64,000 nt of DNA from Ilumatobacteraceae bacterium (lineage in GTDB: Bacteria; Actinomycetota; Acidimicrobiia; Acidimicrobiales; Ilumatobacteraceae). The translations under genes and the position numbers were made by a program. The stretch is from positions 2,325 through 66,324 of the forward strand of contig JAYUCY010000094.1 of assembly GCA_043740085.1 (NCBI GenBank), given 5' to 3'. Positions 32,489 to 52,489 of this stretch are shown here, piece after piece. The stretch's first letter is position 1. Every line of letters starts with the position of its first letter. Under the pieces are notes generated by a model that searched no databases, had not been told where the DNA came from, and saw nothing but the letters and a program-made list of their open reading frames with translations.

Positions 32489-32518
32489 CCGAGGTGGACG
32501 ACGCGCCCGGGTCGCCAG

Positions 32519-34054
<1,536 letters not shown>

Positions 34055-35268: not shown

Positions 35269-35366
35269 CATCAGAACCGGATCACCGCGAGCGTCCGGAC
35301 GGCTGATCGAGGGCGTGTGGTACGGTCCGGCAAACAACGGTACCCGACGGGAAACGGAAGTGGAAG

Positions 35367-36257: not shown

Positions 36258-36274
36258 ATGAGTAGTTCCAAGGG

Positions 36275-36530: not shown

Positions 36531-36714
36531 GTGGAGTCGTCCAGCCACAGATCGTCTGCGGTGCAGCGGGACCCGCCGTCGTCCAGGTCGTGTTCAGTTC
36601 ACCTCTTTCAGATTTGCGGCCGGTGAAAAGTCATCTCCACCGGAACACCGAGAGCCGCTCCCCGACGGGGTTGTCGGACAACACCCCAGGTCGATCCAAT
36701 CGATGTCGGGTTGA

Positions 36715-36831
36715 TTCACGCGTGCACGGAGTTGACGATCGCCGGTGAACGATCGGCGAATCCGAATAAGGTAAACTGACAAAGAGTCGCCGCCCAGCGC
36801 CCAGCGCCCGCACCCTTGGAACCATTCGTCT
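36715..36831. repeat. 117-bp inverted repeat, left copy
   Basis: It is the reverse complement of 52205-52322, with 5 transitions and 1 single-base indel. It contains tandem GGGCGCT and CGATCG-N8-CGATCG. Confidence 0.85.
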
Positions 36832-36920
36832 GGACCTTCCGTTGACCAGAGGGACCACGAGTCCTGGCGCTCGGTGGCAAACCCGGTACCTCGGGTTGCA
36901 CTCAGTCGGCGATGGCCGCC

Positions 36921-37604
36921 CTAGAGATCGCGGTGGTACGGCAATCCGAGCGCATTGCAGTAGAGACGTGTCAGTTGTTCGGTTGCCTCGTCGAGGTCAT
37001 ACGGCTCGCCGAGCACGACCCACACGTACGCCGACCGATCGACCATCGACCCGAGCGCATTTGCCGCGTAGCGGGCATCGATCCGCTGATCGACAAGGCC
37101 GTTCTGCTGCCAGCGGCAGATCGACTCGGTGGCGCGGTCGACCCAGAACCGCCGCCTTTCCCGGCGAGCTTCGGCAAACCGCGGGTTGAACGTCGCGACC
37201 TGCTCGAGCACCGCCATCATGCGCCCGTTCGCCTGATACGCCCGGATGTACCTGCGGTTCGCGCGCTCGATCCGCTCCGACAGCTCTCCCGACACCGCCG
37301 GCTCGTCGTCGGCGACCCGCTGTAAGTCGCCGACCAGGCCGTCGACCACCTCCAAAAAAATCTCCTCCTTGGAGCTGAAGTAGGTGTAAAAGGTGCCATG
37401 TGCCACCCGGGCGCGCCGCGCGATGTGGTCGACGTTGACATCGATGTAGCCGCTCTTTTCGAACAACGCCCGAGCAGCCTTGACAAGTGCGGTCCGCGTA
37501 CGCGCCCCCCGTGCCGTGACAGGTGCCGTCGCCAGCGGCGGGGCGGTTGGACGCTTGGCTCTCGATAGCGGTGCGGCTTTGGTGTCCGTGGTCGTGGTGC
37601 CCAT
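36921..37604 (-). CDS. TetR/AcrR-family transcriptional regulator
   Basis: HTH VNVDHIARRARVAHGTFYTYFSSKEEIF. Confidence 0.9.
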   Translation of the reverse strand: MGTTTTDTKAAPLSRAKRPTAPPLATAPVTARGARTRTALVKAARALFEKSGYIDVNVDHIARRARVAHGTFYTYFSSKEEIFLEVVDGLVGDLQRVADDEPAVSGELSERIERANRRYIRAYQANGRMMAVLEQVATFNPRFAEARRERRRFWVDRATESICRWQQNGLVDQRIDARYAANALGSMVDRSAYVWVVLGEPYDLDEATEQLTRLYCNALGLPYHRDL

Positions 37605-37626
37605 GGCGTCAGTGTCTACACAAAAC

Positions 37627-37640
37627 TGACGTGCGCGTCA
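37627..37640. promoter_or_regulatory. palindromic operator candidate TGACGTGCGCGTCA (TetR / ligase divergent region)
   Basis: It lies 23 nt upstream of the TetR start codon, inside the 119-nt divergent intergenic region. It belongs to the same TGAC-N6-GTCA class as the sites at 47353 and 48457. Confidence 0.5.
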
Positions 37641-37723
37641 ACCCTCTTGCGGGTCGGGCTCGCCGTCGATACTGTGGAGACAGGCGGGCGTCGGGGACGC
37701 TCAGCCACCATCAGGGGGTCACG

Positions 37724-39280
37724 GTGACAGATCAGGACACACTCGGCGAGCCGATCGTCAAGCAGGGTAGGACGCCGCAGATCATGCCGTTCGACATGTC
37801 CGGGATCGTCCGCACCGAGGACGGCGTTCTCCGCTACGGAAACCTCCCGGGATCGCTGCTCGAAATGTTCCGCACCTCGGTGGACCGCACTCCCGATCGA
37901 GAGTGCATCGTCGTGCTCGGTGGCGAGCGCGTCACGTACCAGCAGGTGTGGGATCGTGCCGCACGTGTCGCCGGTGGGCTCGCCGCAGCTGGCGTCCGCC
38001 CTGGGGACCGCGTGGCGAACCGTCACGGCAACAGCCTCGACTGGTGCCTCGGGTTCTGGGGCACGCTCATGGCCGGCGCTGTGGTCGTGCCCGTGAACAC
38101 CCGCTTCTCCGAGTCTGAGGTCGACTACGTCGTCACCGACTCCGGCGCGTCGCACGTTCTGCTTCCCGACGAGCCGTTGCCCGACGGCGACCCGCTCGTC
38201 GTCGACGTGGAGCGCAACGCGTTGGCCGCGATCTTCTACACGAGCGGCACGACCGGCTTCCCGAAGGGTGCGATGACCACCCACGAGAACTTCCTCTCCA
38301 ACAGCGAGACCTGCCGACGAATCATGTCCCTGCCGACCGATACCCATCTCCGCAACCTCGTGTCGGTGCCGCTATTCCACGTGACGGGGTGCAACAGCCA
38401 GCTGATCGTTACCACGCAACTGGGCGGTACCACAGTCATCATGCCGGCGTTCGAGGTGCAGGCATTTCTCCGGGCAACCGTCGACGAGCAGATCAACATC
38501 CTCACGTCCGTCCCGGCGATCTTCTGGCTCGCCATGAGCCAGCCGAACTTCCCCGACTTCGACCTGAGCAACGTGCGCTTCGTCACCTACGGCGGTGCCC
38601 CCACTGCTCCGGATGTGGTCGCGCGGCTGCGGTCATCGTTCCCGAACGCCCGCCTCGGCAACGGCTTCGGTCTCACGGAGACGTCGTCGGTGTCGACGTT
38701 CCTCCCCGATGAGTACGCGGAGTTGCGTCCCGAGACGGTCGGCTTCACGGCGCCGCCCGTCGAGGTCGACCTCCATGACGTCGACCCCACCTCGGGGGTC
38801 GGCGAACTGTTGATCCGCGGCCAGAACGTCGTCACCGGCTACTGGAACAAGCCGGAGCAGACGACGCACACGTTCGTCGACGGGTGGCTCCACACCGGTG
38901 ACCTGGCCCGTGTGGACGACGACGGGTTCGTTCAGATCGTCGACCGCAAGAAGGACATGGTCAACCGCGGTGGCGAGAACGTCTACTGCGTGGAGGTGGA
39001 GAACGCGCTCGTCGAGCACCCGCAGGTGTTCGAGGTCGCGGTGCTCGGTGTGCCCGACGAGATGATGGGGGAAAAGGTTGGCGCAGTGGTCGTGCCCCGA
39101 CCTGGGACCGACCCTGATCCGCGCGAGATCCGCGCCTTCGTGAAGGCGCGGATCGCCGACTTCAAGGTGCCGCAGTTCATCGCGTTCCGCAAGGACCCGC
39201 TGCCGCGCAACGCTGGCGGCAAGGTGCTGAAGCCGGTGTTGCGAGAAGAAACCGAGTGGGGCGAGCAGCTCCGCGGCTGA
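37724..39280 (+). CDS. AMP-dependent acyl-CoA synthetase/ligase
   Basis: GTG start at 37724 preceded by AGGGGG. IFYTSGTTGFPKGAMTTHEN, LHTGDLARVDDDGFVQIVDRKKDMV and GKVLK motifs. Confidence 0.85.
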   Translation: MTDQDTLGEPIVKQGRTPQIMPFDMSGIVRTEDGVLRYGNLPGSLLEMFRTSVDRTPDRECIVVLGGERVTYQQVWDRAARVAGGLAAAGVRPGDRVANRHGNSLDWCLGFWGTLMAGAVVVPVNTRFSESEVDYVVTDSGASHVLLPDEPLPDGDPLVVDVERNALAAIFYTSGTTGFPKGAMTTHENFLSNSETCRRIMSLPTDTHLRNLVSVPLFHVTGCNSQLIVTTQLGGTTVIMPAFEVQAFLRATVDEQINILTSVPAIFWLAMSQPNFPDFDLSNVRFVTYGGAPTAPDVVARLRSSFPNARLGNGFGLTETSSVSTFLPDEYAELRPETVGFTAPPVEVDLHDVDPTSGVGELLIRGQNVVTGYWNKPEQTTHTFVDGWLHTGDLARVDDDGFVQIVDRKKDMVNRGGENVYCVEVENALVEHPQVFEVAVLGVPDEMMGEKVGAVVVPRPGTDPDPREIRAFVKARIADFKVPQFIAFRKDPLPRNAGGKVLKPVLREETEWGEQLRG

Positions 39281-39307
39281 CGCGAGAACTGCCGTGATGT
39301 CGAGGGG

Positions 39308-40966
39308 TTACGGGGACGGCTGGACGCGCAGCTCGCGGCGGAGGATCTTGCCGGTCACCGTCTTCGGCAACTCGTCGACGAACTCGATCGAGCGCGGGTA
39401 CTTGTAGGCCGACATCCGCTCCTTGCAGAATTTGATCAGCTCCGCCTCGTCGGTCTGCTCACCTGGCCGGAGGCTGACGAAGGCCTTGACTGTCTCTCCC
39501 CGGTACTCGTCGGGCACACCGACGACTGCGGCCTCGCGGACCGCGGGATGCTGGTAGAGCACGTCCTCGACCTCGCGCGGCCACACCTTGTAGCCGGCAG
39601 CGATGATCATGTCCTTCTTGCGGTCGACGACGTAGTACCAGCCTTCGGGATCCATGAAACCGACGTCACCGGTGTACAGGCTCCCGCCTGGCAACGCATG
39701 AGCTGTCTCCTCTGGCTTGTTCCAGTAGCCAGCGACGACCTGCGGACCGCTCGTCACGAACTCACCGATCTCGCCAACAGGTACGTCGACGCCCTGCTCG
39801 TCCACGACGCGGACGATCGTGTTGAAGATCGGCACGCCGACGGAGAGTGCGCCCGATGTCGGGTCTACCGGCGCACGCGCACCCATCGGTACCCCGTGTG
39901 AGGGTGAGGTCGTCTCGGTGAGGCCGTAGATGTTGTGGATGTACGCGCCCACCTCGCTCTCGAATCGCTCGACCATGGTCGGGGCGATCGGCGCACCACC
40001 GCTGTAGATCTTCGTCAGCGACGAGAGGTCGCGTCCCTTGCATGACGGGTCGTTCATCAGCGCGATGAACACAGTGATCGCACCGACCGTGAACGTGGGG
40101 CGGTAACGCTCGATCAGGTCGAGCACGGTCACAGGGTCGAAGCGGTACCCGAGCACGATCGGCATCGGCACCAAGAGCCCGACCGTGAGGTGGGCGATGA
40201 GGCCCGTGATGTGGAACAGCGGAGCGATGGCGAGTACGACGTCGTCGGGCGTGAGCGACATCCACGTCCGGTACGCCTCCGAGTTGAACACGACGTTGCG
40301 GTGCGTGTTCATCGCGCCCTTCGGCGGCCCGGTCGTTCCCGAGGTGTATGTGAGGAAGGCGACGTCGTCGGCGCTCAGCGACACCGCCGGCGGGCGCTGT
40401 CCGTCGTGCAGGGCGATCAGGTCGACCAGATCGAGCGTCGCGTCCTGTGCAGCCTTCACCGACCCCGCCAACATCGCAGGCCGCTCGTCGCCAAGGTAGT
40501 CGAGCTCGCTCGTGGTGATCACCGTGCGGACCCCTGGACACGCGGCCACGACGTCGCGGGCGACGTCGACGTACAACGACTCGAGCGTCACGAGTACGCA
40601 AGCACCGGAGTCCTCGAGCGCATAGGTGAGCTCGCGGCCCTTGTTCATCGGGTTGACCGGCACCACGACGCCACCGGCTTTCCACGTGGCGAGGACGCCG
40701 AGGACGAATTGCGGCACGTTCTGCATGTAGATCGCGACGCGGTCACCGCGAGCGAAACCGTGGTGGATGATCGCCGCTGCCAGCGCGTCGGAGGCCCGGT
40801 CGACCTCGGCGACCGTCATGGTGCGCCCGAAGAAGTGGACCAGCGGACTCTCCGGTGACGACGCGCACGAGTGACGGAACATGTCGAGCGCGTTGGCGAA
40901 GGGGATCTCGATGTCGGTCGGCGTCCCTGGCGGATATTGGCGTAACCACGGTCGCTGCTCGTACAT
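39308..40966 (-). CDS. long-chain fatty-acid-CoA ligase (FadD-like)
   Basis: LTYTSGTTGPPKGAMNTHRN, LYTGDVGFMDPEGWYYVVDRKKDMI and GKILRRELR motifs. Confidence 0.9.
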   Translation of the reverse strand: MYEQRPWLRQYPPGTPTDIEIPFANALDMFRHSCASSPESPLVHFFGRTMTVAEVDRASDALAAAIIHHGFARGDRVAIYMQNVPQFVLGVLATWKAGGVVVPVNPMNKGRELTYALEDSGACVLVTLESLYVDVARDVVAACPGVRTVITTSELDYLGDERPAMLAGSVKAAQDATLDLVDLIALHDGQRPPAVSLSADDVAFLTYTSGTTGPPKGAMNTHRNVVFNSEAYRTWMSLTPDDVVLAIAPLFHITGLIAHLTVGLLVPMPIVLGYRFDPVTVLDLIERYRPTFTVGAITVFIALMNDPSCKGRDLSSLTKIYSGGAPIAPTMVERFESEVGAYIHNIYGLTETTSPSHGVPMGARAPVDPTSGALSVGVPIFNTIVRVVDEQGVDVPVGEIGEFVTSGPQVVAGYWNKPEETAHALPGGSLYTGDVGFMDPEGWYYVVDRKKDMIIAAGYKVWPREVEDVLYQHPAVREAAVVGVPDEYRGETVKAFVSLRPGEQTDEAELIKFCKERMSAYKYPRSIEFVDELPKTVTGKILRRELRVQPSP

Positions 40967-40996
40967 GAGATCCCCTCCTCGGTGTTGTGTGTGGAC

Positions 40997-41965
40997 TTAC
41001 TTGATCACGACAGGGTTGACCGGCGCGCCGGTCGCGTTGACGACCTTCAACGGCGCCGCCACGTACAGGAACGTCCACTGACCGTCGGCGGCACAGTCGT
41101 CGGCCAGGTCGTCGAGCCACGCGATTTCGGTGAGCGTGACACCGAGGTTGCGCATCAGCGCATTGTGCAATGGCAGAGTGACGCCCGACACCGGATCGGT
41201 CGTGACCTCGTTGGCGATGGTGTCCGTGACGAGGTTCGGGATCTCCATGTCGTGGAACCACTGGACGAGCTCATTGCTGTGGGTGAGGCCCGGCTCGACG
41301 AAGTTGCCGTAGAACTCCTCACGGCTGACTTTGTAGAACTTGCCGATCCACCCCGTGCGGATGACGAGGATGTCGCGCGGTTGGATCTCGGTCCCCTGAG
41401 CCTTTGCGCAGGCCATCAGGTCCTCGTGGGTGAACGTCTCCCCGACGTCGAGGACGTCCTTGCCCCGGAACCGTGCCATGTCGAGCAGGATTCCACGCCC
41501 GACCACGCCCTTTACTGCGATCGCCATGACGCTCGCCTTCGCGAGGCCGCCGTTGGTGGTGCTCGCGTCGTATCCGTTCCAGATCTGGTCGTCGTACCAG
41601 ACGTGGCCGAGTGCGTCGTACTGGGTGCTCCCCTGCAGGAAGCAGGTCATGAAGTCGTCCGCATAGTGCGCCCCACCGGAGAACGCGGGACCTTTGCCGG
41701 CGGCGTACATCCCCTCGTCCATCACCATGGTGCGCACCGCGCCGGTACGGCCTGGCCAGACCGGGTCACCCTCTGGATTGGCCATCTTGACCTGGAGGGT
41801 GAAGACCTTGCCCTGCTTGATCGAGCCAGCGGCCGCAAGGATGACGTCGGCCGTGAGGTAGTTGAGGCAGCCGACCTCGTCGTCGGGCCCCCACTTACCC
41901 CAGTTCTTGGGCGAGTCCTTCAACAGCTCCTTGACGCTGATCTGTTCCTTGTCCGTAGCGGTCAT
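40997..41965 (-). CDS. cyclase-family protein (kynurenine-formamidase-like fold)
   Basis: NWGKWGPDDEVGCLNY and STQYDALGHVWYDDQIWNGY. Paralogous to 48515..49456. Confidence 0.7.
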   Translation of the reverse strand: MTATDKEQISVKELLKDSPKNWGKWGPDDEVGCLNYLTADVILAAAGSIKQGKVFTLQVKMANPEGDPVWPGRTGAVRTMVMDEGMYAAGKGPAFSGGAHYADDFMTCFLQGSTQYDALGHVWYDDQIWNGYDASTTNGGLAKASVMAIAVKGVVGRGILLDMARFRGKDVLDVGETFTHEDLMACAKAQGTEIQPRDILVIRTGWIGKFYKVSREEFYGNFVEPGLTHSNELVQWFHDMEIPNLVTDTIANEVTTDPVSGVTLPLHNALMRNLGVTLTEIAWLDDLADDCAADGQWTFLYVAAPLKVVNATGAPVNPVVIK

Positions 41966-41980
41966 GATGTTCTCCTTGGC

Positions 41981-42253
41981 TCATTGATGGGTTGACTGAG
42001 GGATACTGAGTTCGTTCAGGGTTCCGGGACGGAGGCCGGGCTGGCTGTCCTGGAGTCGGCGAGGTCGGCCATGTGTGTGCCGTTGAGGTAGTACCGACGG
42101 CCCACGCGGGGTGAACAAGATGTCGTCGCCGTTCCGGATGAACCAGATCGGCAACACCGACGCATACCCGTCGCTGTCGATTGTGCCGATCCGCAACAGA
42201 TGCCCGGGCTCGTCGAGGAACTGAACAATCTCGGTGGTGGTGAACTTCGGCAT
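41981..42253 (-). CDS. pyridoxamine 5-prime-phosphate oxidase-family protein, probably truncated
   Basis: MPKFTTTEIVQFLDEPGHLLRIGTIDSDGYASVLPIWFIRNGDDILFTPRG is a typical PPOX N-terminal half. The last ~35 codons look non-native, and family members are usually 130-150 aa. Confidence 0.4.
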   Translation of the reverse strand: MPKFTTTEIVQFLDEPGHLLRIGTIDSDGYASVLPIWFIRNGDDILFTPRGPSVLPQRHTHGRPRRLQDSQPGLRPGTLNELSIPQSTHQ

Positions 42254-43053
42254 CAGAACAGGTCCCAGTAGCTGTCGCGGGCGCGCATCTGCCCGACCGT
42301 CTCTTCGACGATCACGCGTCCGGAACGCATGACGTAGACGCGATCGACGATCCGCAGCGCCTGGCCGACGTTCTGCTCGAGGAGGAGCACCGCCAGTCCT
42401 TCCTCATCGGCCAACCGGCGCACCGTGTCGAAGATCTGCTGGACGACCGACGGGGCAAGGCCGAGGGAGGGCTCATCGAGCATCAACAGCTTCGGGCTGG
42501 CCATCAGCGCCATGCCGAGGCTGACCATCCGCTGCTGGCCACCCGACATCGTTCCTGCAAGCTGCGCGTCGCGTTCGACGAGAATCGGGAAGAGGCGCTG
42601 GACAAGCTCCATCCGTTTCGCCCGACGATCCTGGTCAGGGTCGTTCTCGGCTCCGAGGAGCAGGTTGTCGCGCACGGAGAGGTCGGCGAACACGAATCGC
42701 TCGGACGGGATCATCGCCATACCGGCCTTCACGTTGTGGCGTGAGCCGGATCGCGTGACGTCGGCGCCGTTGAACCGAACCTGCCCACCAAGGGCACGGT
42801 TGATCCCCAGGATGGTGCGGATCGTCGTGCTCTTCCCACTGCCGTTGTGACCGAGCACGCCGACGATCTCACCTTCGTCCACGTGGAGATCCACCTCGAA
42901 CACGACCTGCTTGCGGCCGTATCCGGCTTGCAGGCGCTCCAGGGTGAGCAGCCGACGGTCGGGGGTCGCTTCTGCGACGAGCGCGTCGCTCTTGGGCTCA
43001 TGCTGTTCCAAAGTACGCCTCCGCCAATCGGGGGGTGTTCGTGAGCTCGGCAA
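42253..43053 (-). CDS. branched-chain-amino-acid-type ABC transporter ATP-binding protein (LivF-like)
   Basis: GVLGHNGSGKSTT Walker A, LSGGQQRM signature and LLMLDEPS Walker B. The ATG at 43053 overlaps the upstream gene by 56 nt. A TTG near 43011 is an alternative start. Confidence 0.85.
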   Translation of the reverse strand: MPSSRTPPDWRRRTLEQHEPKSDALVAEATPDRRLLTLERLQAGYGRKQVVFEVDLHVDEGEIVGVLGHNGSGKSTTIRTILGINRALGGQVRFNGADVTRSGSRHNVKAGMAMIPSERFVFADLSVRDNLLLGAENDPDQDRRAKRMELVQRLFPILVERDAQLAGTMSGGQQRMVSLGMALMASPKLLMLDEPSLGLAPSVVQQIFDTVRRLADEEGLAVLLLEQNVGQALRIVDRVYVMRSGRVIVEETVGQMRARDSYWDLF

Positions 43054-44785
43054 CCGTCCCCTGGGCCGTGATCCGCCCCAGCTCCATGAAGTACGTGTGG
43101 TCGGCGAGGCGACGCACGACGTGCAGGTTGTGCTCGACGATGCACACCGTGCGGCCCTGCTCGCGCACCGCCGCGATGAGGTCGAGCATTGTGTCGACCC
43201 ACTTCGTGTCGATGCCGGAAGCCGGTTCGTCGAGCAGGATCACCTCGGCCTCGGTGGCGAGGACGCGGGCAAGCGAGACCAGCTTCGTCTGCCCGTAGGA
43301 CAGCGCGCCGGCGGGCACATCGGCGAACTCACCCATGCCGACGAAGGCCAGCCACTCCATCGCCTTCTCGCGCGTTCGCTCCTCGATCCGCTTCACCTGG
43401 CGATGGTTGAACGCGAGTGTCGCAAAGTTCTCGCCCGCCTGGTTCTGCACGGCCATCATGACGTTCTGCAGGCACGACAGCCGGCTGAAGAGCCGTACAT
43501 CCTGGAAAGAACGCACGAGACCGAGACGCGCAACCTTGGCAGGAGTAAGGCCCACGAGCTCTTGACCGTTCAACTTCACAGACCCCGCATCGGGCGTGAT
43601 GAAACCTGTGAGGAGGTTGAACACGGTGGTCTTCCCCGCGCCATTCGGCCCGACGAGAGCGGTGATCGTGCCGCGCCGGAGCTCGATCTGCAGATCCTCT
43701 GCGGCGATGATCCCACCGAACCGTTTGCTCACGCCCACGGTCTGCAGCACCACCGGCGCCTCGTGCCACCGCCGTTCGGTGTCTCTCTCGCGCCTGTCCT
43801 CGGCTTCGTCGCTGAGGCCGGCGCCCGGTTGATGGACCTCGATGCGCGGCTGCGGCGTCCAGCCTTCCACCATCTCGACGCGCTTGCCCGTGCCGCGCTG
43901 CCCGCGGAGCCATCGCCAAGGCGAGAAGCCCTCCGGGAGTGCTCCCTGCGGGCGGACCCTCATCAGCACGACCAGCGCGACGCCGTAGATGATGAGCTGG
44001 ACGACGCTCGCTCGCGCTGCATCCATGTCGACCGCGCGCTTCAGCAGCGGGTCGAGGAGGACGACGATGGTCGCGCCGAGGATGCTGCCGGGTAGGTTGC
44101 CCATCCCACCGAAGATCACGATCGCGAACACGGTCAACGAGAAGGCAAAGCCGAAGACGCCCGGCGTCGCCAGCCGAAGCCATGCAGAGATGAAACCCCC
44201 GGCGAGGGCGGCGAGCGCCGACGTCGTCCCGAAGACGGCGACCTTGTAGCCGAGCACGTTCTTGCCGAGTGCCTGGGTGGAGATCGGGTCCTCGCGGATT
44301 CCCTTCAGCACCCGACCCGTCGGCGACTCACCAATCCGCCTGCAGATGAAATAGACCACGAGCATCACTACGAGCGACGGGATCACCCAATCGCGTGGCC
44401 GGAGCAGGTGCCAGCCGAAGATGTCGGCCGCAGGCAGATTGATCAGCCCGTAGGAACCGCCCATCGACGGCGTCGCGATGAGCAGGCCGAGGATCACCGA
44501 CGACACCGCGAGCGTCAGCAGGATCAGGTACTCGACGCTGAGCTTCAGCGCGGGCAGGGCCACGACGCTGCCCACCACGAACGCGATGACCATGCCGATC
44601 GCAGAGCCGAGGAGGAAGTTCCAATGGTGATTGAGAGTGATGTAGCCCATCGCGTATCCGCCGATCGCGCCGAAGGACGCGTGTGCAACGGAAACCTGTC
44701 CCGCGTAGCCGAGCAGCAGGTTCAGTGAGAGCGCCAAGGTGGCGTAGAGCAGGATCTGGTCGAGGTAGTTGAGCCACAGGTCCAT
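42998..44785 (-). CDS. fused LivM-like permease / LivG-like ATPase
   Basis: The N-terminal ~330 aa are polytopic (MDLWLNYLDQILLYATLALSLNLLLGYAGQVSVAHASFG). The C-terminal half carries LVGPNGAGKTTVFN, LSYGQTKL and ILLDEPASG. Confidence 0.85.
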   Translation of the reverse strand: MDLWLNYLDQILLYATLALSLNLLLGYAGQVSVAHASFGAIGGYAMGYITLNHHWNFLLGSAIGMVIAFVVGSVVALPALKLSVEYLILLTLAVSSVILGLLIATPSMGGSYGLINLPAADIFGWHLLRPRDWVIPSLVVMLVVYFICRRIGESPTGRVLKGIREDPISTQALGKNVLGYKVAVFGTTSALAALAGGFISAWLRLATPGVFGFAFSLTVFAIVIFGGMGNLPGSILGATIVVLLDPLLKRAVDMDAARASVVQLIIYGVALVVLMRVRPQGALPEGFSPWRWLRGQRGTGKRVEMVEGWTPQPRIEVHQPGAGLSDEAEDRRERDTERRWHEAPVVLQTVGVSKRFGGIIAAEDLQIELRRGTITALVGPNGAGKTTVFNLLTGFITPDAGSVKLNGQELVGLTPAKVARLGLVRSFQDVRLFSRLSCLQNVMMAVQNQAGENFATLAFNHRQVKRIEERTREKAMEWLAFVGMGEFADVPAGALSYGQTKLVSLARVLATEAEVILLDEPASGIDTKWVDTMLDLIAAVREQGRTVCIVEHNLHVVRRLADHTYFMELGRITAQGTVAELTNTPRLAEAYFGTA

Positions 44786-44789
44786 CGGG

Positions 44790-45713: not shown

Positions 45714-45795
45714 GTATTTCCTTTTCTCGGATGTGGGATCGAGCGGGACAAGTGAGCACGCGGAGGGGTCCGGTTGGACCCCTCCGCGAAACGGA

Positions 45796-47157
45796 TCAGA
45801 CCTTGCTGTAGTCCTCGCCGTTGATGCCGAAGAATGCCTTCGGTGTCACCACGCCGTCCTTGTACTCGAACACCCCCATGTTCCGCTTGAGCACGGAGTG
45901 GGTCGTCTCGTCGAGGGTGGAGGTCCCGAGGGTACTGTCGTCGCCGCCATACACCGAGACGACCGTAAGGTTCGATCGCAGGGCTGCATCAAGGGTGTCG
46001 CCGGTGATCTCGCCACCGTCTTTCAGCACTCGCCGCATGAGCTCCCACATCACGAACGCGTTCTCGTAGAAGTTCGCTGCGTAGAAGTCGGGCAACTCGC
46101 CGAACTCCTTCTCGAACTCGGCGACGAAGTGCTTCGCAAGCGGGCTGACCGGCTTCGCGGAGTCGAAGTAGTCGTACGCGAACGTGTAGCCGTCACGGTC
46201 GTATGCGCCCTTCGACGCCTTGAGCCCGTCGGGGGTGAACTCGGAACCGATCTGGATCGCCTTGATGCCGGCTGTCGACGCCTGGTCCGCGAAGGACCCC
46301 GGGTCCTGGCCGTAGATGCTGACGAGCAGGATGTCCGGCTCGTTGGCCTTGATCTTCGGCATGACCTGAGAGAAGTCCTGGCCGCCGATGGGAACGAGCT
46401 CGTACAGGCCGTTGTGCTCGTAGCCGCCGGCGGCCAACTTCTTGAGGATGTCTTCCTTGATGATGCCGTTGGCAGGTTCGCCGATGTCCCACCCGACGAA
46501 TCCGACCGTCTTCGCATCTGGCGCGGTTTCCTTCAGATACCGGAACAGGCCCGGCATCGGGTCGTTCGGAGTGATCGCGCGGGTTCCCCAGAAGTACGGC
46601 TGGCCCTGACCGAAGATGCTCGTGCCCCCGCCTCCGTCGAGCGTGAACACCTTGTACTGCGCCGTGCCCGCCAGCATCGCACCGAGGTCGTCGACGTACG
46701 AGGCGAACTTCGCCACCACTCCCTTCGCGCCCATTTCGGTGATCGCGGCCACCCCCGCGGGTGCATCGCCCGACTTGTGGTCGAAGTAGAGGTAGTTGAA
46801 CTTTGGGCCGCCCAAAGCCTCGATGTGCTTCGCGGCGAGGTCGAGCCCGCGGCTCATCGTCTTGCCGTAGAAGGAGCCCGTGCCGGTGAGGGCGAGCACG
46901 GCACCCAGGTCGATCGAGAGCCCCTTGCCGGAGCTCGCCGGATCGACGCCGAGCAGCGCGACGAGGTCACTCGTGGCGGAGGCACCTACGGTCGTGTCGG
47001 CTGCGGCATTGGTGGCGGGCGTCTTGCTGCTGCCTTTGTCGCTGCCGCACGCGGCGAGGAGTGCAGCGGCACCCATTGCTCCTGTCGCGCCGAGCAACAG
47101 TGTGCGGCGCGTGACGCGCCCTTCGTGCACGATACCGAACTTGTCGGAATTGGTCAT
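45796..47157 (-). CDS. ABC transporter substrate-binding lipoprotein (LivK / type-1 PBP-like)
   Basis: Tat-like RRTLLLGATGAMGAAALLAACGS signal with lipobox. 453 aa. Confidence 0.8.
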   Translation of the reverse strand: MTNSDKFGIVHEGRVTRRTLLLGATGAMGAAALLAACGSDKGSSKTPATNAAADTTVGASATSDLVALLGVDPASSGKGLSIDLGAVLALTGTGSFYGKTMSRGLDLAAKHIEALGGPKFNYLYFDHKSGDAPAGVAAITEMGAKGVVAKFASYVDDLGAMLAGTAQYKVFTLDGGGGTSIFGQGQPYFWGTRAITPNDPMPGLFRYLKETAPDAKTVGFVGWDIGEPANGIIKEDILKKLAAGGYEHNGLYELVPIGGQDFSQVMPKIKANEPDILLVSIYGQDPGSFADQASTAGIKAIQIGSEFTPDGLKASKGAYDRDGYTFAYDYFDSAKPVSPLAKHFVAEFEKEFGELPDFYAANFYENAFVMWELMRRVLKDGGEITGDTLDAALRSNLTVVSVYGGDDSTLGTSTLDETTHSVLKRNMGVFEYKDGVVTPKAFFGINGEDYSKV

Positions 47158-47352
47158 TTCCTGTTTCTCCCTCTCGGTGGTGGATTGGGAGACCCTCGTT
47201 CAGTCCGAAAAGCTCCGACGCGGACAGAGTCCACCCGCTACCAAGCCGTGCTCAAACGTCCCTGCAGACCCCCTGGCGAACGGCCGAAATCCTTCGAACC
47301 GGTCGCCTATTCGGACCATACACAAGCGACTCGTCGAAGGCAAGAGATTTGT

Positions 47353-47366
47353 TGACGAGCACGTCA
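47353..47366. promoter_or_regulatory. palindromic operator candidate TGACGAGCACGTCA
   Basis: Read on the minus strand it is TGACGTGCTCGTCA, matching the 37627 site at 13 of 14 positions. It lies 196 nt upstream of the ABC substrate-binding gene. Confidence 0.45.
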
Positions 47367-47399
47367 TGTTCTGGCGTGGCAGGAGGCCAGCAGCGACTC

Positions 47400-48329
47400 T
47401 CAGGTGTTGAGATGCTGCAGCTTGGCGCCCGGGCGCGGCCACTGCATCGAGAGCAGCTTCCCCGTGGCCGAGATCGTGATGTACGCGGTCCGCAGGTCGG
47501 GTCCACCGAAGCAGATGTTGGTGGTCAGGATGTCGCCGGTCGCGATGAAGTCGATCAGCTCGCCCTGTGGCGAGATGACCGAGATGCCGCCGGCGACGAG
47601 GGTCGCGACACAGACGTTGCCGTCGCTGTCGACTGCCAGGGAGTCGAGCAGCTGCAACCCGGGGAAGCCGTGGAGACAGACGGAGGAGTCGACGATCGTC
47701 GTCTCGGCGACCTTCCCCGGCGAGGTGATGTCGCGCTGCATGACGCGTCCGTGCCACGTCTCAGCCCAGTACAGCTTCTTCCCGTCGGGCGAGAGGCCGA
47801 TCCCGTTCGCGTCGTGAACGGGGAACACCACTTCGTGGATCTCCGAGCCGTCCGCCTTCGCGTAGTGGATCCCCGACAAATGGGCGACGTGCTTCTCCTC
47901 GTCGGTGAGCCCGTGGTCAGTGAAGTAGAAGCCACCGTGAGCGTCGAAGACGAGGTCGTTCGGCGCCCACAACGGCTTGCCGTCGGACTCGGTGTAGAGG
48001 TCCTCGACCTTGCCCGTGCCAAGGTCGACGGTTTGGATCCGGCCGCCGATGTATTTCTCCTTCGTGGTCGGGCCAGGGAAGGTCATCCCGTCGAGCTGCG
48101 TCTCGGTGAAACGACCACCGTTGTTGCAGACGTAGATCTTGTTGTCAGGCCCCATCGCAGCGCCATTCGGGCCGCCGGGGATCTCGGCGATCGTCTCCTT
48201 GGACCCATCGGGCTTGACCCTTGTGAGTCGTGGGCCGAACATCTCGACGAGGATGACCGAACCATCGGGCATCGCGATTGGGCCTTCCGGGAACGACAGG
48301 CCGCTGGTGACTTCTTTCAACTCGGGCAT
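47400..48329 (-). CDS. SMP-30/gluconolactonase/LRE-family protein
   Basis: Started at the ATG at 48329: MPELKEVTSGLSFPEGPIAMPDGSVILVE. Also PNDLVFDAHGGFYFTD. Confidence 0.8.
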   Translation of the reverse strand: MPELKEVTSGLSFPEGPIAMPDGSVILVEMFGPRLTRVKPDGSKETIAEIPGGPNGAAMGPDNKIYVCNNGGRFTETQLDGMTFPGPTTKEKYIGGRIQTVDLGTGKVEDLYTESDGKPLWAPNDLVFDAHGGFYFTDHGLTDEEKHVAHLSGIHYAKADGSEIHEVVFPVHDANGIGLSPDGKKLYWAETWHGRVMQRDITSPGKVAETTIVDSSVCLHGFPGLQLLDSLAVDSDGNVCVATLVAGGISVISPQGELIDFIATGDILTTNICFGGPDLRTAYITISATGKLLSMQWPRPGAKLQHLNT

Positions 48330-48456
48330 CAGAACTCCTCTTGTGCTTGGGCGGGGGGTGGCGTCGGCAGCACCGAAATCTGTGCGGACCGATCCCCTTC
48401 GGCGCCCGACGGGCCCATCCAACTTCATCGCCGACGTACTGTCAAGCGACCATTAC

Positions 48457-48472
48457 TTGACACGCGTGTCAA
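48457..48472. promoter_or_regulatory. perfect 16-bp palindrome TTGACACGCGTGTCAA (divergent SMP-30 / cyclase promoter region)
   Basis: It is self-complementary over all 16 positions. An extra half-site TGTCAA lies at 48440-48445. The site is 43 nt upstream of the cyclase start codon. Confidence 0.5.
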
Positions 48473-48514
48473 GTTAAAGTACAACAGGAAAGTCGGCATT
48501 CTGTATCCGGCGGA

Positions 48515-49456
48515 TTGGGGTCCGAGGTGGAGAACCACTCGGTGAAGGACTTTCGTGAGCTTGGCTCACAGCTGAGCAACTGGGGGCGTTGGGGCCACGA
48601 CGACGAACGGGGCACCGTCAACCTGATCACGCCGGAGTGCCTCGTCACCGCCGCGCAGCTGGTCAAGCGTGGCGCCATCTTCGATCTCGGCATCCCGTTC
48701 GACAGCAACGGACCACAACCCGGCGGCGGGCGGATCAACCCCGTGCGGCTGATGTCGGAGACCGGTGCTGACCAACAGTTCCCGGGGGCGTTCCACTACG
48801 CCGACGACTACGTGTTCATGCCGCTCCAGGCGGCGTCGCAGTGGGACGGGCTCGCCCACGTCTATTACGACGACCTCCTCTACAACGGGTTTCCGGCGAG
48901 CGACGTTTCGGCGCACGGGGCGAAGCACTGTTCGATCGACAAGATGGCGAAGGGGATCGCGGGCCGCGGTGTCCTGCTCGACATTGCCCGGTTGCGAGGC
49001 GTCGACTGGCTCGAGCAGGGCGCCGTGATCAGCCCGGCCGATCTCGATGAAGCGGCCCAGCGCCAGGGCGTGGAGGTGCGCAGTGGCGACATCCTGCTGT
49101 TCAGGACCGGCTGGCGGACGAAGTTCGTCACCGACAAGAACGCAGCGGAGTTCATGGCCGGCGAGCCGGGCCTCGGGCTCGCCTGCTGCCGGTGGCTGCA
49201 CGATCACGAGGTCGCCGCCGTCGCGTCGGACAACTGGGCGATCGAAGTTCTGCCTGGGGAGATCGACACCGAGCTGCTCCCCGTGCACATGGTGCTGATC
49301 CGCGACATGGGAATGACACTCGGGGAGATCCTCGACTTCGACGAGCTCGCTGCTGATTGCGAGGCAGACGGGGTGTGGGAGTTCTTCTTCACCGCACCGC
49401 CGATCAAGTTCACCAATGCAGTCGGGTCGCCGATCAACCCGCTCGCGATCAAGTGA
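48515..49456 (+). CDS. cyclase-family protein
   Basis: NWGRWGHDDERGTVNL and ASQWDGLAHVYYDDLLYNGF. TTG start at 48515; the GTG at 48527 is an alternative. Confidence 0.7.
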   Translation: MGSEVENHSVKDFRELGSQLSNWGRWGHDDERGTVNLITPECLVTAAQLVKRGAIFDLGIPFDSNGPQPGGGRINPVRLMSETGADQQFPGAFHYADDYVFMPLQAASQWDGLAHVYYDDLLYNGFPASDVSAHGAKHCSIDKMAKGIAGRGVLLDIARLRGVDWLEQGAVISPADLDEAAQRQGVEVRSGDILLFRTGWRTKFVTDKNAAEFMAGEPGLGLACCRWLHDHEVAAVASDNWAIEVLPGEIDTELLPVHMVLIRDMGMTLGEILDFDELAADCEADGVWEFFFTAPPIKFTNAVGSPINPLAIK

Positions 49457-49474
49457 CCGCACTGCTGACTCGGA

Positions 49475-49517
49475 CCAGCACCAGCACCACAACCACAACC
49501 TGAACCTGAACCTGAAC
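49475..49517 (+). repeat. intergenic hexanucleotide run (ACCNNN)x7
   Basis: ACCAGC ACCAGC ACCACA ACCACA ACCTGA ACCTGA ACCTGA AC, ending 14 nt before the acyl-CoA dehydrogenase ATG. Confidence 0.7.
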
Positions 49518-49531
49518 AAGGACGGCATGCC

Positions 49532-50806
49532 ATGAACTTCGACATCCCACCCGAGATCGCGTCGTACCTCGACGAGCTCGACGAGTTCATCGAGCGCGAG
49601 ATCAAGCCGCTCGAGCAGGAGAACGACAACATCCGGTTCTTCGATCACCGGCGCGAGGACGCGCGTACCGACTGGGATCGCGGGGGGCTCCCCAACGACG
49701 AGTGGGAGGAGCTACTCGGTGAGGCGCGACGGCGCGCCGACAAGGCTGGCCACTACCGCTATCCGTTGGCGAAGGAGTACGGCGGCAAGGACGGCACGAA
49801 CCTCGGGATGGCGATCATCCGCGAGCACTTCGCGACGAAGGGTCTCGGGTTGCACAACGATCTACAGAACGAGCACTCGATCGTTGGCAACAACGTCGCT
49901 CTGCTGCTGATGATCCGCTACGGCACGGAGTCGCAGAAGAAGGAGTGGATCGACGACCTCGCCGAAGGCCGGCGCGGGTTCGCGTTCGGTATCACGGAGC
50001 CGAACCACGGCTCGGACGCGACACACATGGAGACGACGGCGGTCCGCGACGGCGACGAGTGGATCATCAACGGCGAGAAGACCTGGAACACCGGCATCCA
50101 CAAGGCGAAGTACGACCTGATCTTCGCCCGTACGAGCGGCAACGCCGGCGACGGCGAGGGGATCACGGCATTCCTGACGCCGACCGACTCGCCCGGTTTC
50201 GAGATCCTCGAGTTCCTGTGGACCTTCAACATGCCAACCGATCACGCCCACGTATCGTTCACCGACATCCGCGTGCCGGACGAGGCGATCTTCGGCGGAG
50301 AGGGTCGCGGCCTCCAGGTCGTGCAGCACTTCTTCAACGAGAACCGCATCCGCCAGGCTGCGTCGAGCCTCGGCGCCGCACAGTTCTGCATCAACGAGTC
50401 GGTCGAATACGCCAAGGTTCGCCAGCCGTTCGGCAAGGCGCTGGCGACGAACCAGGCGATCCAATTCCCGCTCGTCGAGCTGCAGACACAGTGCGAGATG
50501 CTCCGCGCCCTGATCCACAAGACGGCGTGGATGATGGACACCTATGGCGCGTTCTCGGTGTCGGACAAGGTGTCGATGTGCAACTACTGGTCGAACCGGT
50601 TGTGCTGCGAGGCGGCCGACCGGGCGATGCAGGTGCACGGTGGCATGGGCTACAGCCGGCACAAGCCGTTCGAGCACATCTACCGCCACCACCGCCGCTA
50701 CCGGATCACCGAGGGCGCCGAGGAGATCCAGATGCGTCGTGTCGCCGGCTACATGTTCGGCTTCATGAACCAGCGCCAGCCCAAGGGCGTCACGTCGGAC
50801 GACTGA
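49532..50806 (+). CDS. acyl-CoA dehydrogenase
   Basis: GITEPNHGSDATHMETTA and QVHGGMGYSRHKPFEHIYRHHRRYRITEGAEEIQ motifs. Confidence 0.9.
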   Translation: MNFDIPPEIASYLDELDEFIEREIKPLEQENDNIRFFDHRREDARTDWDRGGLPNDEWEELLGEARRRADKAGHYRYPLAKEYGGKDGTNLGMAIIREHFATKGLGLHNDLQNEHSIVGNNVALLLMIRYGTESQKKEWIDDLAEGRRGFAFGITEPNHGSDATHMETTAVRDGDEWIINGEKTWNTGIHKAKYDLIFARTSGNAGDGEGITAFLTPTDSPGFEILEFLWTFNMPTDHAHVSFTDIRVPDEAIFGGEGRGLQVVQHFFNENRIRQAASSLGAAQFCINESVEYAKVRQPFGKALATNQAIQFPLVELQTQCEMLRALIHKTAWMMDTYGAFSVSDKVSMCNYWSNRLCCEAADRAMQVHGGMGYSRHKPFEHIYRHHRRYRITEGAEEIQMRRVAGYMFGFMNQRQPKGVTSDD

Positions 50807-50842
50807 CCGCCACCCGAGAAGTCCCTGTCATAATCAGGCACG

Positions 50843-51214
50843 ATGCAACCACGACCAACGGCCCACGAGCTCCTCGCGATCGTCGCCGAGGTACTTGAGC
50901 GCGACCTCGTCCCCGCGCTCACCGGTCCGGCGCAACACCATGCACGCGTGGCGGCGAGCCTCGTCGGGATCGTCGAGCGGGAGTTGCGCCTCGGCCCGGC
51001 GGCGGCCGACCACGAGACCATCGTGCTGCGCCGATTGATCGGCGCGGAGAGCGATAACCTCCTCGGGCTACGCGCGCGGCTCGCCCGCGACCTGCGTGGT
51101 GGCCTCGCCGACGATCCTGCACGGGCGGCCGAGATCTGGCCGGCGTTGATGGAGTTCGTCCGAGCCGACCTGTCGATCGTCAAGCCTGGTCACGACTCCT
51201 GGGAAGGCGAGTGA
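50843..51214 (+). CDS. small helical protein (DUF6285-like, usually found between an ACAD and a phosphotransferase)
   Basis: 123 aa, beginning MQPRPTAHELLAIVAEVLERDLVPAL. The family name is from memory. The stop overlaps the next start (GTGA). Confidence 0.5.
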   Translation: MQPRPTAHELLAIVAEVLERDLVPALTGPAQHHARVAASLVGIVERELRLGPAAADHETIVLRRLIGAESDNLLGLRARLARDLRGGLADDPARAAEIWPALMEFVRADLSIVKPGHDSWEGE

Positions 51215-52206
51215 TCGGCGGCGACCTCTCCGCGCGGTTGGCAGCGTGGCTGAGCGAGCAGCGCAGCGACACGGTGGACGTGCGCGGGCTGGCGATGTCG
51301 TCCGCTGGAGCGAGGCGCGTCAACGCCCTCTTCGAGGCGGTCGGCTCGTCGGGCTCGACCAGGCTTGCGCTCACGATGATCCCGACGGCCGCTGTCCAGA
51401 TCCTCGACGTGAGCGACGAGGCCGGTGTGCTCGCCCTCGCCGAGGAGGCCGGGGTGCCGGTACCGCATGTCCACCACGTGTGCACCGACGCGGCCGTGCT
51501 CGGCGGACCGTTCTTCATCAGCACGGCCGTCGACGGCGAGACGGTGCCGCGTCGTGTGCTGCGGCTCGCACAGTCGGCGGGCATCGGAGACCTGGTGGCC
51601 ACGCAGCTCGGCGATGCCATCGCCCACCTCCACCGCCTCGACCCGGGCGCCGCGCCGGCGGCCCTCGTGCGCCCGCCGTCGGACGCGCCCATCGCAGCCG
51701 CGCTGGCGGGAGTCGACGTACTGCTCGACGCCCTGCTCGATCCTTCGCCGACGTTCGCGTACGGCACGAGATGGCTGGAGCGCAACGCACCGGCGGAGCC
51801 CGCGGCGCTGACCGTCCTCCACAGCGACATCCGGACCGGCAACATCATCGTCGGCGAGGATGGCCTGCGGGCCATCCTCGACTGGGAGACCGCACGCGTT
51901 GGCGACCCGATGGAGGATGTCGCCTGGCCGTGCATGCGGATGTGGCGGTTCCGCGAGGACGATCGGCTGGTCGGTGGGCTCGGTGGCCTCGATCCGTTCC
52001 GCGACGCGTATGTCGCGGCGGGCGGCTCGTGGGACGAGGAGCGGTTCCGATGGTGGCGCGTCCTGGGCACGATCCGCTGGGGGCTCGGCCTCGCCGACCA
52101 GGCCCGCGCCCACCTCGACGGGAGCTTCCCGTCGATCGTCATGGCCGGTAGCGGCCGCCGCGTCCCCGAACTCGAATACGACACCCTCCTCCTCGTCCGC
52201 CCATAG
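51211..52206 (+). CDS. phosphotransferase (APH/choline-kinase fold) family protein
   Basis: LHSDIRTGNIIV catalytic loop and ILDWETARVGDP. Confidence 0.8.
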   Translation: MIGGDLSARLAAWLSEQRSDTVDVRGLAMSSAGARRVNALFEAVGSSGSTRLALTMIPTAAVQILDVSDEAGVLALAEEAGVPVPHVHHVCTDAAVLGGPFFISTAVDGETVPRRVLRLAQSAGIGDLVATQLGDAIAHLHRLDPGAAPAALVRPPSDAPIAAALAGVDVLLDALLDPSPTFAYGTRWLERNAPAEPAALTVLHSDIRTGNIIVGEDGLRAILDWETARVGDPMEDVAWPCMRMWRFREDDRLVGGLGGLDPFRDAYVAAGGSWDEERFRWWRVLGTIRWGLGLADQARAHLDGSFPSIVMAGSGRRVPELEYDTLLLVRP

Positions 52207-52322
52207 ACGAATGGTTCCAAGGGGTGCGGGCGCTGGGCGCTGGGCGGCGACTCTTTGTCAGTTCACCTCATTCAGATTCGCCGATCGTTCGCCGGCGATC
52301 GTCAACCCCGTGCACGCGTGAA
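52205..52322. repeat. 118-bp inverted repeat, right copy
   Basis: Reverse complement of 36715-36831. It begins inside the stop codon of the phosphotransferase gene. Confidence 0.85.
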
Positions 52323-52489
52323 CTGTCTTGGAACGATCGATGTTCTGCCCGCGCTGCTCGGCGAGGTTGACAGCTACTTGCTCTTGACGCAAGCAATCGT
52401 GCAGGCTCGGACGTCGAACTGGGGATGCAGGAGACAGTCGACGTCGCCACTGTCATCGAGGGCATCGTGCCGCGGCGATGGGTCCATGC

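What the first reader, a model, noticed from the sequence alone, without database searches (positions are those of the whole stretch)
36715..52322. 15.4-kb catabolic module bounded by 117/118-bp inverted repeats
The sequence at 36715-36831 is the reverse complement of 52205-52322, with five transitions and one single-base indel (about 95 percent identity). The 15,373 bp between them form a self-contained gene set: a TetR regulator, two AMP-ligases, two cyclase-family proteins, an SMP-30 lactonase-like protein, a complete Liv-type ABC importer, and an acyl-CoA dehydrogenase with DUF6285-like and phosphotransferase genes. The right copy begins inside the stop codon of the last gene, and the left copy lies about 180 nt from an IS982-like transposase scrap. 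The repeats contain internal symmetry (tandem GGGCGCT, CGATCG-N8-CGATCG). In their shared reading frame the substitutions are 2 synonymous and 3 non-synonymous, so they are probably not coding. The repeats could be the ends of a composite or mobilised unit, or substrates for inversion of the whole module.
Basis: seen in the sequence. Interest (0 to 1): 0.6.

Follow-up and report, generated by a model that had tools for sequence, protein, structure and literature searches.

The report
Dead IS982 relics flank catabolic cluster
The two 118-bp inverted repeats are the matching right ends of two decayed copies of an IS982-family insertion sequence that carried a small acetyltransferase gene. They landed at stop codons on either side of a catabolic gene cluster that was already in place, so they are ordinary transposon debris and not the borders of a mobile module.

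Summary
Bases 36715-36831 and 52205-52322 are inverted copies (95% identical, 5 transitions and 1 indel), and they are the only two copies in this 3.47-Mb Ilumatobacteraceae MAG.

- The module-facing tip of each copy is a genuine IS982-family terminal inverted repeat. It matches the right end of full-length, transposase-bearing copies in congeners.
- The rest of each repeat is the upstream region of a small GNAT acetyltransferase cassette that lies inside that IS end.
- The left copy is a 580-bp, internally deleted element that keeps both IS ends (36254-36833). The right copy keeps one end plus the GNAT 5' part.
- The outer limit of the repeat is a deletion junction in the left copy, not an element end.

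The cluster is not delimited by the repeats. At least 15 other Ilumatobacteraceae/Acidimicrobiia MAGs carry the same gene order without any repeat. In them the TetR gene is followed within about 100 nt by the AMP-ligase that here lies 2.9 kb outside the left repeat. DUF6285-APH is not next to the ACAD gene in those genomes.

The cluster's binding-protein gene found no close homologue in the 51 congeners. The cluster lies in a stretch of more than 40 kb next to tRNA-Thr that is not syntenic in the five congeners compared. It is therefore probably acquired, but on a larger scale.

The parts
36254..36833 (+). Left element: a 580-bp internally deleted IS982-family element with both terminal repeats, flanked by CTAG (36254-36257, overlapping the TAG stop of the outside SMP-30 gene) and CTGG (36830-36833).
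   Evidence: the 19-nt terminal inverted repeats 36256-36274 / 36813-36831 are 84% complementary; the left end matches IS left ends in G000:C1, G059:C302 and G073:C94; both ends are preceded by TA or CA.
36256..36287 (+). Left terminal repeat (IRL) of the IS982-family element.
   Evidence: 94-97% identical over 32 nt to IS ends in G000:C1:2779-2810, G002:C17 and G059:C302.
36308..36532 (+). Transposase pseudogene fragment (residues 82-157 only).
   Evidence: tblastn, 57% identity, E = 4e-25, to the 323-aa transposase of G059:C302; that protein and the G073 protein score 168-173 bits on NF033520 (IS982 family transposase, cutoff 130).
36596..36714 (-). GNAT acetyltransferase pseudogene, C-terminal fragment (..NQPDIDWIDLG / GVLSDNPVGERL.., frameshifted), followed by the right-hand 20-nt motif (36616-36596).
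   Evidence: 81-86% nt identity to GNAT genes of G006:C63, G011:C9 and G027:C489 (E = 2e-10 to 6e-10); protein fragments; motif.
36715..36831 (+). Left 117-nt repeat. Read on the minus strand it is: IS right terminal repeat (IRR, 36831-36808), tandem heptads, a degenerate left-hand 20-nt motif (36779-36760), and the GNAT 5' region ending at a deletion junction (36715).
52205..52322 (-). Right 118-nt repeat: IS right terminal repeat (52205-52230) abutting the APH stop codon, tandem heptads, the intact left-hand motif (52259-52278), and the GNAT 5' region.
   Evidence: the tip is 89-95% identical to the right ends of IS982-family copies in G062:C1, G008:C3 and G073:C94; 52251-52417 aligns colinearly (69% over 169 nt, E = 3e-14) with the GNAT locus of G006:C63.
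52318..52480 (+). Right element continued: GNAT N-terminal coding remnant (..TIDVLPALLGEVDSYLLLTQAI..), then a short second fragment (CGAACTGGGGATG, 52415-52427). There is no transposase and no left terminal repeat. It ends against the stop of the acidic 564-aa ORF (52490).
   Evidence: 64% over 22 aa, E = 5e-5..
31364..50806 (.). Catabolic cluster as conserved in other Ilumatobacteraceae: PRISE-like reductase, AMP-ligase (32519-34054), TetR, two AMP-ligases, cyclase, Liv-type ABC importer, SMP-30, cyclase, ACAD. It is interrupted at 34055-36920.
34228..36257 (+). Inserted pair (luciferase-like monooxygenase plus a second SMP-30 gene), absent between the TetR gene and the AMP-ligase in relatives. 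G+C is 0.68.
50843..52206 (+). DUF6285 plus APH-family phosphotransferase. They are not next to the ACAD gene in cluster-bearing relatives. G+C is 0.69-0.72. The closest APH homologue found is 56% identical.

Best explanation
The two repeats are the homologous right-end portions of two decayed copies of one IS982-family insertion sequence. Between its transposase gene and its right terminal repeat, that IS carried a small GNAT acetyltransferase cassette pointing towards the transposase; whether it was a passenger gene or an earlier insertion cannot be told. Shown: the repeat tip is an IS982-family terminal repeat, the interior is the 5' flank of the GNAT cassette, the left copy keeps both IS ends, and the identity between the copies stops exactly at the IS terminus. 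Inferred: the element transposed twice, each time into or beside a TAG stop codon (CTAG-type target). One insertion was after the outside SMP-30 gene and one after the APH gene, in opposite orientations. Both copies then lost the transposase and most of the GNAT gene through different internal deletions, which left only 118 nt in common. The catabolic cluster between them was already in place. The same gene order occurs without the repeats in many other Ilumatobacteraceae, and it continues past the left repeat. The repeats have no function today. At most they are a weak substrate (about 39 nt of perfect identity) for rare RecA-mediated inversion.
For:: only two copies, E = 4e-47; 36256-36287 is an IS left end, and 36813-36831 is its inverted partner; the tip CCCGCACCCCTTGGAACCATTCGTCTA matches the right ends of full IS982-family elements (G073:C94:10073-11125 with an intact transposase; G062:C1) at 89-95%; those transposases pass NF033520 (IS982 family); transposase residues 82-157 lie at 36308-36532; the repeat interior and the sequence beyond it on each side are colinear with GNAT (PF00583) loci of congeners. 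The left copy carries the C-terminal part and the right copy the N-terminal part, and the left junction lies at a short microhomology (GTGCACGCGTGAA against GTGGGCGCGGAA); all four IS982-type ends in this genome abut TA or CA, and CTAG is at 0.12 of expectation; 15 or more relatives have the cluster without repeat, motif or IS end (three stray near-matches to an 11-nt IR core, none with blastn support), with the TetR gene about 100 nt from the AMP-ligase. Searches, against the family consensus: at least 4 of the 5 substitutions are derived in the left copy, which fits relic decay.
Against: No intact IS982 element with the GNAT gene inside it was found (52 congeners, 400 genomes of the order, two exact metagenome scans), so the progenitor is inferred. 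In other genomes the GNAT cassette is not next to IS982 ends. The right copy has only one IS end, so its insertion cannot be confirmed by a target duplication. The putative TA duplication of the left element is TA/TG, and the target is palindromic. The IS982 transposition mechanism and target preference are inferred here from four or five elements. The assembly is a draft MAG, so repeats may be under-assembled.
Confidence: 0.72

Rival explanations
1. Composite transposon: the two inverted IS copies mobilised the 15.4-kb segment as a unit, and it transposed into this site.
For: The arrangement is Tn10-like, with the same IS end facing inward at both sides. The cluster's binding-protein gene has no close homologue in the 51 congeners, so the cluster is probably acquired.
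Against: The AMP-ligase and the PRISE-like reductase outside the left repeat belong to the same conserved cluster. The AMP-ligase keeps the conserved position, orientation and operator relative to the TetR gene. The left element by itself is a simple insertion with CTAG/CTGG flanks at the stop of the outside SMP-30 gene. Relatives carry the cluster with no IS. The non-syntenic region is more than 40 kb and starts at tRNA-Thr.
Confidence: 0.06
2. Segmental inverted duplication or gene conversion of a GNAT-cassette flank without transposition. Alternatively, intramolecular replicative transposition that duplicated the IS and inverted the segment.
For: Only two copies exist and they lie 15 kb apart. 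Intramolecular transposition does yield inverted IS copies. CTAG is palindromic, so the flanks cannot discriminate between the models.
Against: Identity ends exactly at the IS terminus in both copies, next to unrelated DNA. A random duplication would not end there. The TetR-to-AMP-ligase orientation is the conserved one, so an inversion model needs two events.
Confidence: 0.12
3. The repeats are functional: paired regulatory elements, transcript-end elements or recombination sites that control or invert the module.
For: Both copies lie just downstream of outward-facing terminal genes. The core holds a 20-nt motif that is 95-100% conserved across species, and a half-site (TTGACGATCG) is shared with the TetR-type operator upstream of the AMP-ligase.
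Against: There is no significant fold on either strand (z = 0.05 to 1.4). There is no Rfam match. The motif in the left copy carries 3 substitutions, so it is decaying. Relatives run the same cluster without the repeats. No recombinase gene is adjacent.
Confidence: 0.05

Closest known systems
IS982-family insertion sequences (ISfinder family; NCBIfam NF033520)
   Same: A single DDE transposase of about 320 aa, an element of about 1.05 kb, terminal inverted repeats of about 20-30 bp, and the transposase stop codon close to the right end (G059:C302, G073:C94). The window holds three such ends and one transposase fragment.
   Different: Both window copies are dead. The right end is preceded by a GNAT-cassette fragment and tandem heptads instead of the transposase C-terminus. 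The elements of this clade are flanked by CTAG.
Transporter IS (tIS: IS derivatives carrying passenger genes) and composite transposons, as defined in PMC9330008
   Same: A GNAT gene fragment lies between the transposase fragment and the terminal repeat in the left element. Two inverted IS remnants bracket a gene cluster.
   Different: No intact passenger-carrying copy was found. The bracketed cluster is in its conserved context and shows no sign of having moved with the IS copies.
MITEs and solo IS ends produced by internal deletion of IS elements
   Same: The left element (580 bp, both terminal repeats, no functional transposase) is a deletion derivative. The right one is a one-ended remnant.
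   Different: There are only two copies, with no sign of amplification. The apparent second terminal repeat at the outer end of the right copy is weak (3-12 of 300 shuffles score as well) and lies in the GNAT 5' region.
tRNA-linked genomic islands or variable regions carrying catabolic clusters
   Same: Synteny with the five congeners compared stops at tRNA-Thr (window about 23.4 kb). Everything from there to beyond the window end is not syntenic in them, including this cluster.
   Different: The region is mosaic.

Membership tests
IS982-family insertion sequence (relic) | DDE transposase matching the IS982 family model | tested here: met
   full-length relatives (G073:C94, G059:C302) score 173 and 168 bits on NF033520 (cutoff 130); window 36308-36532 is 57% identical to residues 82-157 of one of them (E = 4e-25). 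The window fragment alone is too short to pass a model (no Pfam hit).
IS982-family insertion sequence (relic) | Terminal inverted repeats shared with transposase-bearing copies | tested here: met
   the left end is 94-97% identical to other copies. The tip of both 118-bp repeats is 89-95% identical to the right ends of G073:C94, G062:C1 and G008:C3.
IS982-family insertion sequence (relic) | Target-site duplication flanking a complete element | tested here: inconclusive
   The left element is flanked by CTAG and CTGG. The full copies in G073 and G059 are flanked by CTAG on both sides. The site is palindromic and only 2-4 nt long, so this is weak evidence.
Composite (compound) transposon | Two functional IS copies, or at least two functional outer ends plus a transposase supplied in trans | tested here: not met
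   The right element has no outer end or transposase. The left transposase is a 76-residue fragment. The only other IS982 copy seen in the assembly (C1) is interrupted by another IS.
Composite (compound) transposon | The bracketed DNA is foreign to the insertion site and the flanks are contiguous in empty sites | tested here: not met
   genes inside and outside the left repeat are neighbours in relatives (the TetR gene and the AMP-ligase are about 100 nt apart).
Transporter IS (IS with passenger gene) | Passenger ORF located between the terminal repeats of one element, seen in an intact copy | tested here: inconclusive
   The left element has GNAT fragments between its two terminal repeats. 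No intact copy was found in 52 congeners, 400 genomes of the order or genome contigs.
Invertible DNA segment (site-specific or RecA-dependent) | Both orientations present in a population | not testable with these tools
Metagenome exact scans found nothing.
Structured RNA or terminator element | A stable or conserved secondary structure, or an Rfam match | tested here: not met
   z-scores are 0.05 to 1.43 on both strands of both copies and of the C124 relative; no credible Rfam match.

The most novel reading that the evidence does not exclude
The GNAT gene bracketed by an inverted pair of a 20-nt motif (AATCTGAAWGAGGTGAACTG) may be a previously undescribed small mobile cassette of this Ilumatobacteraceae genus. 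Alternatively it may be the passenger of a new passenger-carrying IS982 variant. The motif is 95-100% conserved across species, while the gene is only 62-64% identical. The cassette occurs in at least 5 unrelated contexts, it is often internally deleted, and one orthologous site is empty. The 118-bp repeats would be its first recognised footprints.
Probability: 0.2. Interest if true: 0.45.

Novelty: new member of a known kind. Interest (0 to 1): 0.2.

Why it matters
Mainly as a correction. The repeats should not be used to delimit a mobile catabolic unit or to predict an invertible switch. For annotation, 36254-36833 and 52204-52480 should be marked as IS982-family/GNAT pseudogene remnants. 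The cluster should be drawn from the PRISE-like reductase and AMP-ligase (31.4 kb) to the ACAD gene, with two later additions. The useful biology is on a larger scale. The cluster's binding-protein gene has no close homologue in the 51 congeners, and the cluster sits in a variable region of more than 40 kb linked to tRNA-Thr. It arrived with an ACAD gene whose resident counterpart elsewhere in the genome has decayed to a 52-codon stub. The conserved 20-nt motif around the GNAT gene is a small open question.

Tried and rejected
1. Dispersed generic repeat: rejected, because there are only two copies in the assembly and none in 52 congeners or 400 genomes of the order.

2. Structured RNA, riboswitch or terminator: rejected.

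3. A MITE of about 135 bp with IS-like repeats at both ends of the right copy: the outer 'GTTCCAAG..TTCACGCG' resembles the IS left end, but only weakly (3-12 of 300 shuffles score as well). It falls in the GNAT 5' region, which is colinear with G006:C63. Dropped.

4. The unit as a leftover of the ancestral TetR/AMP-ligase intergenic operator: only a 10-nt half-site is shared. Dropped.

5. Whether the two inserted gene pairs (34228-36257 and 50843-52206) were once contiguous, which would be the signature of an inversion: no relative shows them together, and the present orientation is the conserved one.

7. Two exact-pattern scans of metagenome contigs: nothing found.

8. Search for an intact GNAT-carrying IS982: none found.

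9. The 19.9-kb blastn against the genus scored only 5 candidates per genome, so it could not show absence of the cluster. It was replaced by a protein search.
Full report
OBSERVATION. The window is G000:C94:2325-66324 of a 3.47-Mb, 155-contig Ilumatobacteraceae (Acidimicrobiales) MAG. The organism name comes from record titles.
- Bases 36715-36831 and 52205-52322 are inverted copies. The global alignment shows 5 substitutions, all transitions, and one 1-nt indel. The longest perfect stretch is about 39 nt.
- A whole-assembly BLAST finds exactly these two copies (E = 4e-47).

WHAT THE REPEAT IS MADE OF.

(a) The module-facing tip is an IS982-family end.
- 36256-36287 is 94-97% identical to the ends of other elements (G000:C1, G002:C17, G059:C302). 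It is the inverted partner of 36813-36831 (19 nt, 84%).
- G059:C302 and G073:C94:10073-11125 are full elements of about 1.05 kb. Their transposases pass NCBIfam NF033520, IS982 family (168 and 173 bits against a cutoff of 130).
- The right ends of these elements (..CCCCTTGGAACCAATCGTCTAG; G062:C1..CCCCCGCACCCCTTGGAACCAATCATCTAG) match the repeat tip CCCGCACCCCTTGGAACCATTCGTCTA at 89-95%.
- Window 36308-36532 encodes residues 82-157 of such a transposase (57% identity).

(b) The interior of the repeat is the 5' flank of a GNAT acetyltransferase cassette.
- A 20-nt core, AATCTGAAWGAGGTGAACTG, recurs in congeners. There an inverted pair of it brackets a GNAT gene of about 180 aa (PF00583).
- The gene is full-length in G027:C489, G006:C63 and G011:C9. 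It is internally deleted in G002:C41, G006:C12, G033:C366 and G000:C124.
- The right copy, 52251-52417, aligns colinearly with the G006:C63 locus from upstream of the left motif into the N-terminal codons (69% over 169 nt, E = 3e-14). The peptide TIDVLPALLGEVDSYLLLTQAI matches at 64%.
- In the left copy, read on the minus strand, the repeat runs straight into a GNAT C-terminal fragment (36728-36668, 81% to G006:C63; 36705-36663, 86% to G011) and then the right-hand motif (36616-36596).

The outer limit of the repeat (36715 / 52322) is therefore an internal deletion junction in the left copy, at a short microhomology. It is not an element terminus. The inner limit is the true IS terminus.

HISTORY.
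- The left structure (36254-36833) has both IS ends. It is flanked by CTAG, which includes the TAG stop of the outside SMP-30 gene, and by CTGG. Full copies elsewhere are flanked by CTAG on both sides.
- The right structure begins with the IS end directly after the TA of the APH stop codon.
- CTAG is strongly depleted in this genome (observed/expected 0.12).
- Both copies share the junction [GNAT 5' region - heptads - terminal repeat], and their identity stops exactly at the IS terminus next to unrelated DNA. I therefore infer two transposition events of one progenitor element that contained the GNAT cassette. Independent deletions followed.
- Compared with the family consensus (C124 copy and congeners), at least 4 of the 5 substitutions are derived in the left copy, and 3 of them lie in the 20-nt motif. 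This is relic decay.

THE CLUSTER IS NOT BOUNDED BY THE REPEATS. A search with the solute-binding protein retrieved 21 loci.
- At least 15 loci carry the cluster, or the part of it their contig covers, in one order: ACAD, cyclase, SMP-30, binding protein, LivH, LivM-G fusion, LivF, small ORF, cyclase, AMP-ligase, AMP-ligase, TetR, AMP-ligase.
- The last AMP-ligase corresponds to window 32519-34054, which lies outside the left repeat. In relatives it starts about 100 nt after the TetR gene, behind a conserved palindrome TTGATAnnnTCGTCAA. That palindrome is retained at window positions about 34075-34095.
- In the window, 34055-36920 is therefore an insertion. It holds a luciferase-like monooxygenase, a second SMP-30 gene, the IS relic, and about 90 nt between the IS tip and the TetR stop.
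- A PRISE-like reductase (31364-32488) is also linked to the cluster in L109 and L110.
- DUF6285 and APH are not next to the ACAD gene in any of these loci. The pair is common elsewhere in the order, sometimes with an ACAD gene.
- Both added pairs have higher G+C (0.68-0.72 against 0.62-0.66).
- None of the 21 loci contains the repeat or the motif. Three have stray near-matches to an 11-nt IR core, and none of these has blastn support.
- The TetR-to-AMP-ligase orientation in the window is the conserved one, so there is no net inversion.

LARGER CONTEXT.
- None of the 51 other genomes of the genus has a close homologue of the binding protein (E <= 1e-100).
- Synteny with five congeners holds up to tRNA-Thr (window about 23.4 kb) and then stops. 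Window 52.3-64 kb has no match, and the next 20 kb of the contig has only scattered matches.
- In the ten congeners examined, the ACAD orthologue lies among genes that are on G000 contig C72. At that place G000 keeps only a 52-codon N-terminal remnant.
- The cluster is therefore most likely acquired cargo of a large variable region next to tRNA-Thr. Its ACAD gene has replaced the resident one.

FUNCTION OF THE REPEATS. None is indicated.
- There is no significant fold on either strand.
- There is no Rfam match.
- Recombination between the arms is conceivable but would be inefficient, with about 39 nt of perfect identity.
- The read-based test could not be run.

COMPARISON WITH KNOWN SYSTEMS. 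These are IS982-family relics. The geometry is that of a composite transposon, and the left element looks like a decayed transporter IS (terms as defined in PMC9330008). The defining features of a working or formerly mobile composite transposon were tested and are not met.

WHAT REMAINS OPEN.
- Whether the GNAT gene was a true passenger of the IS.
- What the ultra-conserved 20-nt motif pair does.
- Whether the segment ever inverts.

VERDICT. The reading as mobile-element debris is right, and the reading as the borders of a module is wrong.

Noticed in passing
window 36596-36616 (-), 36760-36779 (+, degenerate), 52259-52278 (-); G000:C124:30302-30524; C129:14172; C109:9448; L130, L132, L134: A 20-nt motif, AATCTGAAWGAGGTGAACTG, is 95-100% conserved across species. 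As an inverted pair it brackets a patchy, often deleted GNAT gene that sits in at least 5 different genomic contexts. Solitary copies also occur. The exact 20-mer is found in only about 6 MAGs out of 185k species. Its function is unknown.
   Followed up: partly
G000:C72:12911-13067 (outside the window): A 52-codon N-terminal remnant of an ACAD gene lies at the locus where the ten congeners examined keep their orthologue. The only intact copy in this genome is the one inside the acquired cluster (49532-50806).
   Followed up: partly
window 23413-64000 and G000:C94 up to about 86 kb: No colinear synteny with five congeners downstream of tRNA-Thr. The region is a large variable or island region, and each congener has different content there.
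   Followed up: partly
window about 34075-34095 and the TetR/AMP-ligase spacers of L092-L111: A palindrome, TTGATAnnnTCGTCAA, is conserved about 25-30 nt upstream of the AMP-ligase start in all relatives. It is a likely TetR operator. A half-site, TTGACGATCG, also occurs inside the 118-bp repeat.
   Followed up: partly
window 36455-36487 vs 36524-36556: A 33-nt inverted mini-duplication (79%) of the transposase codons DDLWLVDST lies at the point where the transposase fragment breaks off. It looks like a scar of the deletion event.
   Followed up: no
whole genome G000: CTAG is at 0.12 of the frequency expected from base composition (1304 sites). The IS982-family elements of this clade are flanked by CTAG, and two of three ends in the window sit on TAG stop codons.
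   Followed up: partly
L050 (G008:C3:about 339,900-339,985): An IS982-type right end is preceded by three 19-nt tandem repeats instead of a transposase C-terminus. This echoes the tandem heptads before the right end in the window copies.
   Followed up: no
window 42998-44785 (-): LivM-type permease and LivG-type ATPase are fused in one 595-aa ORF. The fusion is conserved full-length in nearly all cluster-bearing relatives.
   Followed up: no
G000:C1:1279-4310 (L038): The only other IS982-family copy in the assembly is itself interrupted, after about residue 150 of its transposase, by another element (IS21-like by eye, not tested).
   Followed up: no
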